The notes beneath the pieces are model-generated. The model had not been told where the DNA came from and did not search any database. It was given only the letters and a program-made list of their open reading frames with translations. A DNA stretch of 30,281 bases from a virus (taxonomy: Duplodnaviria; Caudoviricetes), in IMG/VR virus record IMGVR_UViG_3300025066_000108, positions 1 through 30,281 of that record; one strand, 5' to 3'. The position numbers were made by a program, and so were the translations under genes. This document shows positions 2,544 through 10,983 of the stretch, piece by piece. Every line of letters starts with the position of its first letter. Position 1 is the stretch's first letter.

Positions 2544-2586
2544 CACAAAAAAAGCCCCGCACAACAATTAAGTTGTACAGGGCTTG
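2544..2586 (-). terminator. Intrinsic terminator ending the second early-gene cluster
   Basis: Minus strand AAGCCCTGTACAAC-TTAATT-GTTGTGCGGGGCTT, running into a T7 tract. Confidence 0.85.
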
Positions 2587-4217: not shown

Positions 4218-4964
4218 TTATCCTTCAACCGATGCCAGATGGTTTACAAGTTCTCGTACTAATTTTTGTGAGTGTGTGTGCAATTCATCCCACCTGCCAA
4301 TGCTAGATTTGTTTGCTGTTTCCTTTGGTCTGCACCATTCATCAATGTATGCCATTGCTTCACCATACGTTTCAAAAGTGGCTTCCCATTTGTATTCGCC
4401 CTCTGGAATAACAAAGTAGTGGTGGTCATCAATGCCGATGTCATCTTGTGTGTAAGCACTTCGGTCTTTGTAGCCAAGCCAAGTAATACTGTATTCAGTA
4501 CCCATAACTTTGCCACCAAGTTCACGTTCAAACAATTCAATGGCTGCATCTTCCGAGTAACCAACCTTCATAATCCAAGCAATCATGTGCATTGGTGGTA
4601 GGTCTTGCATACTTTCCATCAAATCACATGCATCGTCATACATATCATCAGGTAATCTATTACCAGTTGCAGTACGCTTAATATCACTTTCAAAACTTGT
4701 TCCTTTGAATATGGAATCTGGCTTTTCTACTTCACTCATGGTTATTGCAACTGATTCAAACCATTTGTTGTCAAGTTTCAAACCACAAACTGCAATGTGG
4801 TGGCATAATTTTAACCATGCAAGGCGTTCCGCTTCTTCCATAGTTTCTGCTGCAAATGTCATTCCAATTATTTCTTCGCTTGGGTCTGTCACAACACCAA
4901 CCGAAGTTGTTGCTGCTATTGATTTCCCATTTGTGTGTTCGCAATTTTCTACTTTGTAATTCAT
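4218..4964 (-). CDS. Hypothetical acidic early protein (248 aa)
   Basis: Long ORF with GAAAGGAA RBS inside the repeated element. Confidence 0.8.
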   Translation of the reverse strand: MNYKVENCEHTNGKSIAATTSVGVVTDPSEEIIGMTFAAETMEEAERLAWLKLCHHIAVCGLKLDNKWFESVAITMSEVEKPDSIFKGTSFESDIKRTATGNRLPDDMYDDACDLMESMQDLPPMHMIAWIMKVGYSEDAAIELFERELGGKVMGTEYSITWLGYKDRSAYTQDDIGIDDHHYFVIPEGEYKWEATFETYGEAMAYIDEWCRPKETANKSSIGRWDELHTHSQKLVRELVNHLASVEG

Positions 4965-5006
4965 AACTGTAATTCCTTTCTAAGAATCGTTGTGCCTTGC
5001 GGCGGT
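4965..5006 (-). repeat. Intergenic repeat element, short copy A
   Basis: ACCGCC-GCAA-GGC-ACAACGATTCTTAGAAAGGAATTACAGTT-ATG; fills the whole gap from stop to start. Confidence 0.85.
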
Positions 5007-5279
5007 TTATCCCTGCTGTTGTAGATATAGTGGCAAGGTTTCCAAGTGTAGCAAGCGTTTCTTTTCCATTTTTTCTTCAAGACTAACTATCTCCCGAAGC
5101 GAGTTGATTGCGGCTTTTGCATTTTCGATATATGCTGTGTATGGGCAGTTTGGGTTTGACTCATCTTGGAATATGCACATATCTATAATTGTAATTCCTA
5201 ACCAATCCATTCGTTGATGTAATAGTGGCAATTTGTCCGCAGGTGTCATTGATATACACATTGTTGTTTCGTTGTTCAT
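5007..5279 (-). CDS. Hypothetical protein (MNNETTMC...)
   Basis: RBS GAAAGGAA in repeat copy B; true start inferred at 5279. Confidence 0.75.
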   Translation of the reverse strand: MNNETTMCISMTPADKLPLLHQRMDWLGITIIDMCIFQDESNPNCPYTAYIENAKAAINSLREIVSLEEKMEKKRLLHLETLPLYLQQQG

Positions 5280-5381
5280 CTTTATTTTCCTTTCAAGAAT
5301 CGTTTTGCCTTTCGGCGGTTTGTTCGCACCGAGTTGTGCGGATGGATACTCCCGCAGGAGTACCCGACCTCGCAACCTTGG
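5280..5381 (-). ncRNA. Structured intergenic element, long copy B (putative cis-regulatory RNA)
   Basis: AAGGTTGCGAGGTC-GGGTACTCC-TGCG-GGAGTATCC-ATCCGCACAACTCGGTGCGAACAAACC-GCC-GAAA-GGC-AAAACGATTCTTGAAAGGAAAATAAAG-ATG. Confidence 0.6.
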
Positions 5382-5651
5382 TTACTTAGTTCTGTAAGAA
5401 TCATCCCATTCTTTACCTGCGTAAAACTTGTAGTGACTTCTCGCTTCCTTTCCTTCGGGTGTGTCTGGTTGAGTATCCAAGCAACCATTTTCCCATTGTG
5501 AAATCCAGAAACAATTTCTGCACAGTTCGCAGTTTGATTCTCCATCACCTGTTTCTCTAGTTAGTTTCCCGCAATCATGGCAAGTGTAACATCCTGAACC
5601 TTTTTGGAATGTTTTTTTTCCCCATGTTTCGTTTGTTGTTTCGTTTTTCAT
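5382..5651 (-). CDS. Small zinc-finger-like protein
   Basis: CHDC...CELCRNC (CxxC pairs); RBS in repeat copy C. Confidence 0.75.
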   Translation of the reverse strand: MKNETTNETWGKKTFQKGSGCYTCHDCGKLTRETGDGESNCELCRNCFWISQWENGCLDTQPDTPEGKEARSHYKFYAGKEWDDSYRTK

Positions 5652-5753
5652 AACTGGTAATTCCTTTCAAGAATCGTTGTGCCTTTCGGCGGTTGTGTTC
5701 GCTACAAAGTTGTGCGGTGATACACACCCGCAGGTGTGCATCGCCTCGCAACC
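5652..5753 (-). ncRNA. Structured intergenic element, long copy C (putative cis-regulatory RNA)
   Basis: GGTTGCGAGGC-GATGCACACC-TGCG-GGTGTGTATC-ACCGCACAACTTTGTAGCGAACACAACC-GCC-GAAA-GGC-ACAACGATTCTTGAAAGGAATTACCAGTT-ATG; stem sequence differs from copy B but pairing is kept. Confidence 0.6.
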
Positions 5754-6026
5754 TTAGATTCTTTCAGACCAAAAACTTTCATCCTGCGGTGCTTCGCTGC
5801 TACCCCACTTAATCATTAAATCGATTCTTGACTTGCATTCTTTAATGGTTGAGTGACACCAAACAAGTTTGCCATAAGAATCATAAACATATCTTCGTGT
5901 GACCTTGCCACCATGTACGCCTCTGCTTGTTTCAGTAACAATCGCGAAGTTCCTGTAATCGATTTTGTTTTCTGCATTTTCGATGTTGCTCATTTTTTCT
6001 GCTTGTCGTTTTTCTGTGTTGAACAT
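5754..6026 (-). CDS. Hypothetical early protein (MFNTEKRQ...)
   Basis: First gene after the promoter; GAAAGG upstream of ATG 6026. Confidence 0.7.
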   Translation of the reverse strand: MFNTEKRQAEKMSNIENAENKIDYRNFAIVTETSRGVHGGKVTRRYVYDSYGKLVWCHSTIKECKSRIDLMIKWGSSEAPQDESFWSERI

Positions 6027-6071
6027 TGTTCTTGCCTTTCGTTTGGGGGTTTGTTTCCTTTGACTACGTGT

Positions 6072-6100
6072 ATATTGGCACAATCCACCCCATCTGTCAA
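6072..6100 (-). promoter_or_regulatory. Putative sigma70 early promoter
   Basis: TTGACA (6100-6095), 17-nt spacer ending in TGC, CAATAT (6077-6072); AT-rich upstream sequence. Confidence 0.6.
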
Positions 6101-6224
6101 GTAATAATAGGATAATTTTCAAGTTTTTTTGCTTTATGGCGTTTTCAGGCTAATAATGCACATATACCCACAAAAAAAGTAGTATATTCTTTGCTTTTAC
6201 CCTAGCCAAACGGCAAGAATGTGG

Positions 6225-8766: not shown

Positions 8767-8802
8767 AAAATCCGCAGGCAGGGCTTTCGCCCCACCCACG
8801 GA
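8767..8802 (-). terminator. GC-rich hairpin with GAAA loop and short U tract after the SSB-like gene
   Basis: TCCGTGGGTGGGGC-GAAA-GCCCTGCCTGCGGA-TTTT (several G-U pairs). Confidence 0.6.
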
Positions 8803-10609: not shown

Positions 10610-10638
10610 TTTCCTTTTCTGCCTTGCGGCGGTTGGGT
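10610..10638 (-). repeat. Intergenic repeat element, minimal copy D
   Basis: ACCCAACC-GCC-GCAA-GGC-AGAAAAGGAAA-ATG. Confidence 0.75.
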
Positions 10639-10935: not shown

Positions 10936-10983
10936 CTTTATTTTCCTTTCAAGAAAATCGTTTTGCCCTTTGGCGTTTCTAAT
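10936..10983 (-). repeat. Intergenic repeat element, copy E
   Basis: AAAC-GCC-AAAG-GGC-AAAACGATTTTCTTGAAAGGAAAATAAAG-ATG; TTCTTGAAAGGAAAATAAAGATG is identical to copy B. Confidence 0.8.

What the first reader, a model, noticed from the sequence alone, without database searches (positions are those of the whole stretch)
4965..5753. Repeated structured element with compensatory stem changes fills the gaps between early genes
Seen: three consecutive small genes are each preceded by one element family that occupies the whole stop-to-start gap. Long copies B (5280-5381) and C (5652-5753) share AGGUUGCGAGG, a stem capped by C(UGCG)G (a UNCG-type loop), CCGCACAACU, GCGAAC, AACC-GCC-GAAA-GGC, AACGAUUCUUGAAAGGAA (RBS) and then AUG. 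The central stem is GGGUACUCC/GGAGUAUCC in B but GAUGCACACC/GGUGUGUAUC in C, so the sequence differs while pairing is kept, including G-U pairs. In both copies CGCAC can pair either upstream with GUUGCG or downstream with GU(A)GCG, which are mutually exclusive folds. Inference: an uncharacterised cis-regulatory RNA. It could be a switch, a phage-protein binding site, or an RNase III-type processing signal analogous to those between T7 early genes. It also divides the region into recombinable one-gene cassettes, like the PeSL modules of T4-type phages.
Basis: partly seen in the sequence, partly recalled or inferred. Interest (0 to 1): 0.85.

Follow-up and report, generated by a model that had tools for sequence, protein, structure and literature searches.

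The report
Refolding RNase III-like phage hairpin repeat
A group of uncultured phages repeats one conserved RNA hairpin between unrelated small genes; it has the size and upper-stem sequence of phage T7's RNase III cutting sites, so it is likely cut by the host enzyme, and the freed downstream message is predicted to refold into its own small protective 5' hairpin.

Summary
Real, on the minus strand of a 30-kb HK97-type phage whose host is probably Phycisphaerae. The gap element has two separable modules: a long hairpin (copies B, C) and a short GNRA-hairpin/Shine-Dalgarno module (A-E). I collected 47 distinct long copies from 33 loci; 13 of 19 pairs covary. Rfam has no match. The hairpin is about 22 steps long and its upper stem has fixed length. 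That stem mirrors T7 RNase III sites R1.1 and R1, with an invariant C-G at the middle-box position. The T7 register puts the 3' cut exactly where a second, mutually exclusive 5-bp hairpin begins, so cutting would release a message with a 5' hairpin (inferred). Against: 29 of 34 stems carry a G-C pair that inhibits E. coli RNase III, and the second hairpin has weak covariation. A translation switch is unlikely, as SD accessibility hardly changes between folds. Cassette exchange is supported; clean indels cross over in the short module. The scan noted T7-like intergenic hairpins in other phages (unchecked), but not this sequence. Verdict: new variant of a known kind; cleavage untested.

The parts
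5754..6026 (-). Upstream ORF (90 aa, unknown function); its TAA abuts the base of hairpin C
   Evidence: no family in PHROGs or Pfam (scanned as the longer 5754-6122 ORF)
5708..5753 (-). Long hairpin, copy C: lower stem with conserved A.G and C.A mismatches, C.A centre, 10-bp upper stem, C(UGCG)G loop (T7 R1-like)
5716..5717 (-). Predicted RNase III 3'-side cut in C (C^CGCAC) by the T7 R1.1 register; the 5'-side partner cut would be 5743/5742
   Evidence: inference from PMC1540722 geometry
5700..5716 (-). Alternative hairpin P3 of copy C (CGCACA/UGU-A-GCG, bulged A); overlaps the 3' strand of the lower stem
5652..5699 (-). Short module of C: A-rich spacer, GCC-GAAA-GGC hairpin (5681-5690), SD GAAAGGAA (5661-5668) in a weak hairpin
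5382..5651 (-). Gene C (89 aa, Cys-rich, weak phrog_3633); found with a nearly identical long element in L044
5332..5377 (-). Long hairpin, copy B: U.U and C.A centre, 9-bp upper stem, C(UGCG)G loop
5340..5341 (-). Predicted RNase III 3'-side cut in B; the 5'-side partner cut would be 5367/5366
   Evidence: inference
5325..5340 (-). Alternative hairpin P3 of copy B (CGCAC-6 nt-GUGCG)
5280..5324 (-). Short module of B: GNRA hairpin 5307-5316, SD 5287-5294
5007..5279 (-). Gene B (90 aa, unknown); unit B + gene B is shared with L184 at 89% identity, with both alignment ends in elements
4965..5006 (-). Copy A: short module only (GCC-GCAA-GGC 4994-5003, SD 4973-4980)
4218..4964 (-). Gene A (248 aa, unknown)
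   Evidence: no family, no usable look-alike
10610..10638 (-). Copy D: short module only (GCC-GCAA-GGC plus SD)
10936..10983 (-). Copy E: short module only (GCC-AAAG-GGC plus SD hairpin)
6072..6100 (-). Possible sigma-70-type promoter (TTGACA-17-CAATAT) upstream of the gene cluster; weak support
   Evidence: not flagged by the scan; same pattern not found at a matching place in 16 related loci
2552..2585 (-). Terminator-like hairpin with U tail that may close the cluster

Best explanation
The long element is a covarying RNA hairpin repeated between unrelated small phage genes, likely a T7-type processing site for host RNase III, whose predicted 3'-side cut would let the downstream message refold into a built-in 5' hairpin. 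Shown: the fold, its fixed dimensions, its position straight after a stop codon, its independence from the downstream gene, and its sequence match to the upper stems of T7 R1.1 and R1. Inferred steps: (1) RNase III binds the ~22-step helix in the T7 register. (2) The mismatched lower stem biases it to nick at C^CGCAC. (3) The upstream message keeps the 10-11-bp stem as a 3' stabiliser. (4) P3 displaces the weak lower duplex, releasing the downstream message with a hairpin at its very 5' end, followed by an A-rich spacer and an SD. G-C pairs in the proximal box may make cleavage partial. The repeated short module also acts as a crossover point for one-gene gain and loss.
For: Upper segment is 26 or 28 nt in 43 of 47 copies. 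The 28-nt class gives the 11-bp helix + tetraloop + 2-nt overhang that PMC1540722 defines as minimal. C-G at position -9 is invariant in 47 of 47 copies, with 0 parsimony changes against 2-7 at the other 10 positions; it equals the middle-box pair C13:G26 of uR1.1. Distal-box U.G in 26 and U-A in 21 of 34 stems. C-G/A-U/U.G run in 19 of 34 stems against 4 of 708 background hairpins; full CAUUC/GAGUG in 14 of 34 against 1 of 708. Copies B and C share the UGCGG loop of T7 R1, and C also its UGCGGGUG run. Of 7 registers the T7 one scores best, 159/272 against at most 92. Pairing ends at lower position 10-11, giving about 22 steps (PMC3867540 Fig. 5 legend). P3 starts exactly at the predicted cut and forms with p>0.5 in 46 of 47 cut products. 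A sequence-unrelated family upstream of sak4 in 10 distant phages has the same register, A-U/U-A at pb2 in 8 of 10, and a separate small hairpin downstream. Two divergent hairpins in L156 keep the upper register with other lower sequences. Candidate hosts encode RNase III (5 of 5) with the dsRBD LQxxxQ motif.
Against: G-C at pb2 in 18 of 34 stems and at pb4 in 14 of 34; A-U/U-A at pb4 in 0 of 34; only 5 of 34 are free of both. These pairs cut reactivity about 7- to 17-fold for E. coli RNase III and 10-fold for the Aquifex enzyme. The register rules come from R1.1, so that score partly restates sequence likeness, and the 34 stems descend from about a dozen types (my grouping). The lower half shows no clear register. 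RNase III does not by itself explain the near-invariant lower sequence, although the search pattern inflates that invariance (only 8 of 47 copies lie outside it). P3 has one double change in the alignment, reached by 61 of 500 shuffles; in the divergent L156 copy it has 4 of 5 pairs but is not the minimum-energy fold. No host pre-rRNA stem could be identified to calibrate host specificity.
Confidence: 0.55

Rival explanations
1. Binding site without cleavage: RNase III (non-catalytic binding) or a phage- or host-encoded RNA-binding protein recognises the helix and its conserved A.G and C.A mismatches, and tunes stability or translation of the next gene.
For: 29 of 34 stems carry a pb2 or pb4 G-C. 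PMC3867540 notes that G-C at pb4 can give binding without cutting. The lower mismatches are kept in 46 of 46 flanks, and mostly as the same bases.
Against: G-C at pb2 blocks binding as well as cutting in E. coli. The divergent L156 copy keeps the first mismatch positions with other bases, which suggests shape rather than sequence reading. It gives no reason for P3 to start at the predicted cut.
Confidence: 0.2
2. Two-state switch: a ribosome terminating at the upstream stop codon melts the 5' strand of the lower stem, P3 forms, and this toggles processing or decay of the message (translation-gated rather than ligand-gated).
For: Folds are nearly isoenergetic: median difference 1.7 kcal/mol; lower stem dominates in 26 and P3 in 18 of 47 uncut copies. 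An ORF stop lies within 15 nt upstream of the conserved UUG in 40 of 47 copies.
Against: No SD or terminator output: SD accessibility is 0.61 against 0.60, and no copy has a U tract. Unrelated downstream genes argue against a ligand.
Confidence: 0.12
3. Passive intercistronic stabiliser and insulator: a 3' barrier for the upstream message and a 5' hairpin for the downstream one after cutting by a single-strand nuclease; RNase III is not involved.
For: Stable stem with frequent UUCG loops straight after the stop codon; A-rich single-stranded spacer.
Against: Does not explain the fixed stem length or the invariant internal C-G.
Confidence: 0.08
4. Pseudoknot (RRUU paired with the AAYY loop of P3, around the central stem) acting as a ribozyme or aptamer.
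For: The G-C to A-U change at lower position 9 (7 copies) and P3 are both compatible with it.
Against: The inner lower-stem pair G-C to A-U in L181 is explained only by the extended hairpin. A 2-nt linker would have to span 4-5 pairs. No ribozyme family matches.
Confidence: 0.04
5. DNA-level site (operator palindrome CGCAC-N6-GTGCG, or an attC-like ssDNA recombination site).
For: Inverted repeats; cassette-like gene exchange.
Against: G.U 45 against A.C 1 on the sense strand, and UUCG loops. All 18 single changes in P3 are G.U-compatible. No tyrosine integrase in the record. Indels cross over in the short module.
Confidence: 0.02

Closest known systems
Phage T7 RNase III processing sites (R0.3, R0.5, R1, R1.1, R1.3, R4.7; model substrate uR1.1, PMC1540722)
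   Same: Intergenic hairpins between small co-directional genes. Upper stem CAUUC-NNNN-GAGUG (R1.1) or CAYC-UGCG-GGUG (R1). Middle-box C-G, distal-box U.G/U-A, mismatched centre, about 22 steps.
   Different: G-C-rich proximal box. Conserved lower stem with A.G and C.A mismatches. An overlapping alternative hairpin that begins at the predicted cut. Up to three copies per contig, travelling with exchangeable genes. Unrelated phage type and probable Phycisphaerae host.
PeSL cassettes of T4-type phages (PMC2839356)
   Same: Repeated stop-to-start intergenic cassette ending in SD and start codon; associated with one-gene gain, loss and exchange.
   Different: No sigma-70 promoter and no terminator tail inside the element; fixed-length covarying helix; crossovers seen in the short SD module.
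Start-associated sequences (SAS/ESAS) of cluster K mycobacteriophages (recalled, no call)
   Same: A repeated SD-containing motif before non-structural genes, with a longer version at some of them.
   Different: Here the extension is an RNA helix with covariation; no sequence comparison was made.
SPO1/SP82 early RNase III sites (recalled; one search listed no paper on them)
   Same: Repeated conserved processing hairpins between early genes.
   Different: Not compared at sequence level.

Membership tests
T7-type RNase III site | Intergenic RNA hairpin on the sense strand | tested here: met
T7-type RNase III site | At least ~11-bp helix between cut and loop, ~22 bp overall | tested here: met
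   28-nt class 30 of 47; the 26-nt class (13 of 47, including B and C) is one pair shorter, like T7 R1
T7-type RNase III site | Distal box U-A/U.G and middle-box C-G | tested here: met
   21, 26 and 34 of 34 stems; B and C have C-G pairs in the distal box
T7-type RNase III site | Proximal box free of G-C/C-G at positions 2 and 4 (E. coli and Aquifex rule) | tested here: not met
   5 of 34 free of both; B has pb2 G-C, C has pb4 G-C. The host enzyme's rule is unknown, so this is filed as 'works like', not as a shown member.
T7-type RNase III site | Host encodes RNase III | tested here: inconclusive
   5 of 5 candidate host genomes do; host assignment rests on Sak4 at 53-56% identity
T7-type RNase III site | Site-specific cleavage by RNase III | not testable with these tools
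   needs an in vitro assay or RNA end mapping
PeSL | Sigma-70 -35/-10 inside the cassette | tested here: not met
   no site flagged in A, B or C; a -10 spaced from TTGCGA would fall in the variable stem
PeSL | Stem-loop acting as terminator or attenuator | tested here: inconclusive
   0 of 47 have a U tract after the hairpin; attenuation itself cannot be tested here
PeSL | Modular shuffling with breakpoints in the repeat | tested here: met
   L159/L176 and L171/L182 indels; window B unit in L184
Any Rfam 15 family (riboswitches, ribozymes) | Covariance-model match | tested here: not met
   no hit on the element at E<=5 in the window or in 8 homologous loci
Riboswitch | Expression platform and link to one gene class | tested here: not met
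attC-like site | Cognate tyrosine integrase | tested here: not met
   PF00589 not found in the record; the record may be incomplete

The most novel reading that the evidence does not exclude
A self-releasing, translation-gated processing site. The ribosome ending the upstream gene and RNase III cutting at C^CGCAC drive a strand displacement that swaps the lower stem for a new 5' hairpin. One 60-nt unit would thus cut, cap and stabilise both messages and make any gene a plug-in cassette. It would also imply that a Planctomycetota RNase III accepts proximal-box G-C pairs that block the E. coli and Aquifex enzymes.
Probability: 0.3. Interest if true: 0.7.

Novelty: new variant of a known kind. 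Interest (0 to 1): 0.5.

Why it matters
It adds a well-covarying RNA motif that is absent from Rfam, from a phage group with no cultured member found here. It gives a nucleotide-exact prediction (C^CGCAC) that one in vitro assay can test. If right, it shows a processing site designed to refold after cutting, and 34 natural stem variants become a ready-made specificity series for RNase III of a phylum where I found no study of it. Such units could also serve as portable mRNA insulators.

Tried and rejected
Rfam: nothing on the element. Cultured phages by blastn: 76 records at E<=10, none covering 80% of the query; the listed ones are 22-nt matches. Genome collection pattern scan: 71 loci, none with the fold; treated as chance, including a Verrucomicrobia repeat. 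Model R1 on 151 genomes of the candidate host class: not found in those searched, with no positive control. Model R1 on 97 Sak4 loci: full hits in 3 loci only, all at 62% Sak4 identity; no T7 hit. Host pre-16S stems as native RNase III substrates: no clear long stem found, inconclusive. Sequencing runs: no RNA holder listed. Single-protein Sak4 search of genomes gave nothing; the alignment search did. One search used a mis-registered structure string and is void; redone. Rows dropped before counting: L170 and L178 (pattern match without stem), L177 (contig the same length as the window with the same two copies). T7 records in the collection do not annotate RNase III sites. Breakpoint enrichment (41 of 198 alignment ends in elements against 3.7% of sequence) is confounded by gene boundaries and by homology of the repeat, so I rely on the individual indels. 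Literature searches without a description of this motif. Supplements of PMC10690425: 4 of 6 held files searched, no hit; two zip files and three large files could not be read and may hold the motif. Atlas search of gene A gave no usable hit.

Full report
Setting. The window is one 30,281-base virus record. The 49 ORFs I scanned, which tile the record, all lie on the minus strand: terminase, portal, HK97-type capsid, tail, a metallophosphoesterase, Sak4, SSB, a replication protein, RusA-like and HNH genes. The finding lies in a run of unknown ORFs downstream of the replication genes; 'early' is inferred from position. In the genome collection, 25 of the 26 best Sak4 relatives (53-56% identity) lie in Planctomycetota genomes, nearly all Phycisphaerae. 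The SD GAAAGGA complements the 16S 3' tail seen in such genomes. The host is therefore probable, not shown.

Observation. The three gaps are filled stop-to-start as described, and B and C fold better than all 200 shuffles. The element splits into two modules. The long hairpin is only in B and C; a filter-free model search finds no third copy in the window. The short module (A-rich spacer, 3-bp GNRA hairpin, SD, often in a weak hairpin) is in A, B, C and at 10610-10638 and 10936-10983. Rfam has no match on the element in the window or in 8 homologous loci.

Homologues. Pattern scans of viral and metagenome contigs and profile searches of their flanks gave 49 matches. I dropped 2 without a stem, leaving 47 distinct copies in 33 loci and 34 distinct upper stems. 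Eight of the 47 do not match the scan pattern (read), so conservation of the pattern positions is inflated. Among 97 Sak4 loci the model hits fully in 3, all at 62% identity; it was not found in 151 genomes of the candidate host class. An ORF stop lies within 15 nt upstream in 40 of 47 copies, and 40 downstream proteins form 36 clusters.

Structure. The extended hairpin has 19 pairs, 97.1% of cells paired, 13 pairs with double changes, and 0 of 500 shuffles as high; slid controls give 40-53% (RNAalifold agrees on 18 pairs). The sequences are related and the structure was derived from them, so this is strong but not a p-value. G.U outnumbers A.C 45 to 1 on the sense strand, which points to RNA. 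The segment between GG and CC is 28 nt in 30, 26 nt in 13, 27 nt in 2 and 30 nt in 2 copies. Its first pair is always a mismatch and its eighth always C-G, with 0 parsimony changes against 2-7 elsewhere. The lower stem keeps mismatches at positions 3 and 5 and ends at 10-11. The alternative hairpin P3 (CGCAC-6 nt-GUGCG) is 99.6% paired; all 18 single changes are G.U-compatible, but it has one double change and one break, and 61 of 500 shuffles reach it. The two folds are close in energy. The short hairpin also varies in pairs: GCC/GGC 40, GUC/GAC 4, GCG/CGC 3 among 62 such hairpins at 236 starts.

Comparison with RNase III sites. T7 intergenic hairpins read from the fetched genome show CAUUC-GCAA-GAGUG before gene 1.1 and CAUC-UGCG-GGUG before gene 1. 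These match the 28-nt and 26-nt classes here. From PMC1540722 (abstract, passages, sections 10, 15 part 1, 18, 22 part 1): an 11-bp helix, a 28-nt product, distal box UA/UG, middle-box C13:G26, proximal box GC, AU/UA, AU, AU/UA. This fixes a register in which the invariant C-G is the middle-box pair and the cut falls at C^CGCAC, the first base of P3. The same register gives T7 positions 890, 1468, 3138, 5887, 6448 and 13892, which agree with the annotated sites as I recall them; the fetched records do not list them. The C-G/A-U/U.G run is in 19 of 34 stems against 4 of 708 background hairpins, and this register scores 159/272 against at most 92 for six others, though the rules derive from R1.1. 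PMC3867540 (passages and section 7) gives the 22-bp idealised substrate and notes that mismatches favour single-strand cuts that leave stabilising 3' hairpins. The bioRxiv B. subtilis map (passages) reports similar preferences in a distant enzyme. PMC9291653 (passages) names a guanine preference near the cut.

Independent support. Of 110 Sak4 loci with upstream sequence, 12 (10 distinct, Sak4 44-48%) carry an unrelated hairpin in front of sak4. C-G and A-U were required by my search; U.G follows in 8 of 10, pb2 is A-U/U-A in 8 of 10, the centre is mismatched, and a small covarying hairpin with a 6-nt loop follows before the SD. These are untested too. L156 holds two divergent intergenic hairpins in the same upper register with other lower sequences. 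Candidate hosts encode RNase III (5 of 5), and the dsRBD glutamines align with a solved bacterial enzyme (equating them with Aquifex Q157/Q161 is recalled).

Evidence against. G-C stands at pb2 in 18 and at pb4 in 14 of 34 stems; 5 are free of both and none has A-U/U-A at pb4. These changes inhibit the E. coli enzyme and the Aquifex enzyme (PMC3074117, abstract and section 14). The lower half has no clear register. Host pre-rRNA stems could not be resolved as a calibration. In L156 the P3 register has 4 of 5 pairs but is not the predicted minimum-energy fold. I therefore file the element as working like a T7-type site, not as a shown member.

Rivals. A translation switch has no output: SD accessibility changes by more than 0.2 in 1 of 47 copies, and none has a terminator tail. 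Binding without cutting remains open. A pseudoknot and a DNA site fit less well.

Cassettes. Unit B with its gene occurs in L184 at 89% between different neighbours, ending in the GNRA hairpin of A; unit C with its gene occurs in L044. L159 lacks a ~290-base stretch that L176 has between two AACCGCCG(A/C)AAGG copies, and L171 has a 77-codon gene that L182 lacks between two SD modules. This resembles PeSL shuffling (PMC2839356, abstract and section 14), but the element has no promoter. A role for Sak4 annealing in these short-homology crossovers is inference.

Novelty. I found no description in the searches, nor in 4 readable supplement files of PMC10690425 (search listing and supplements only); its alignment archives were unreadable. 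The scan's own notes list T7-like intergenic hairpins in other phages (unchecked) but nothing on this sequence. The kind is known; the overlapping hairpin that starts at the predicted cut and the G-C-rich proximal box are the new parts.

Noticed in passing
L224, L252, L254, L255, L258, L263, L264, L270, L273, L301 (within 165 nt upstream of sak4); also L226:25-100: A second, sequence-unrelated family: RNase III-like hairpin with a good proximal box, then a covarying 4-bp hairpin with a UUAAAU loop, an A-rich spacer and the SD of sak4.
   Followed up: partly
L156:770-830 and L156:2625-2690: Two divergent intergenic hairpins with the same GG/CC base and C-G at pair 8 but different lower stems.
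   Followed up: partly
L235:9210-9252 and L025:7189-7259: Truncated copies: one with the upper stem nearly deleted, one with only the P3 half, both still before an SD.
   Followed up: no
L021, L022, L028, L029, L030, L036, L040, L042: The short AACC-GCC-GNRA-GGC...GAAAGG start module occurs in other phage contigs of 41-64% GC that lack the long hairpin; it may be a widespread translation-start motif.
   Followed up: no
L167 and L175: Copies use AAGGAGG with the SD in a hairpin loop; L167 carries a 370-aa ORF related to ORFs in L241 and in the Phycisphaerae MAG locus L209, possibly an integrase.
   Followed up: partly
L173 versus L148: Shared segments appear in permuted order with junctions at AAACAAACCCCG; a mini-circle, a rearrangement or an assembly artefact.
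   Followed up: no
L313-L316: Phycisphaerae 16S genes show no obvious long processing stem in the 260 nt upstream and 220 nt downstream, and two copies are followed by terminator-like hairpins.
   Followed up: partly
L077, L083, L089, L100, L113, L114, L116, L134: One Verrucomicrobia MAG has a dispersed repeat that matches the scan pattern but lacks the stem; unrelated.
   Followed up: no
window 5600-5651, 5240-5279: Genes behind the elements often begin with similar N/E/T-rich codons (MKNETT, MNNETT), which extends the repeat into the reading frame.
   Followed up: no
window 8768-8800 (minus): GC-rich hairpin with a short U tail at the end of the SSB gene region, the source of the weak IsrM hit.
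   Followed up: no
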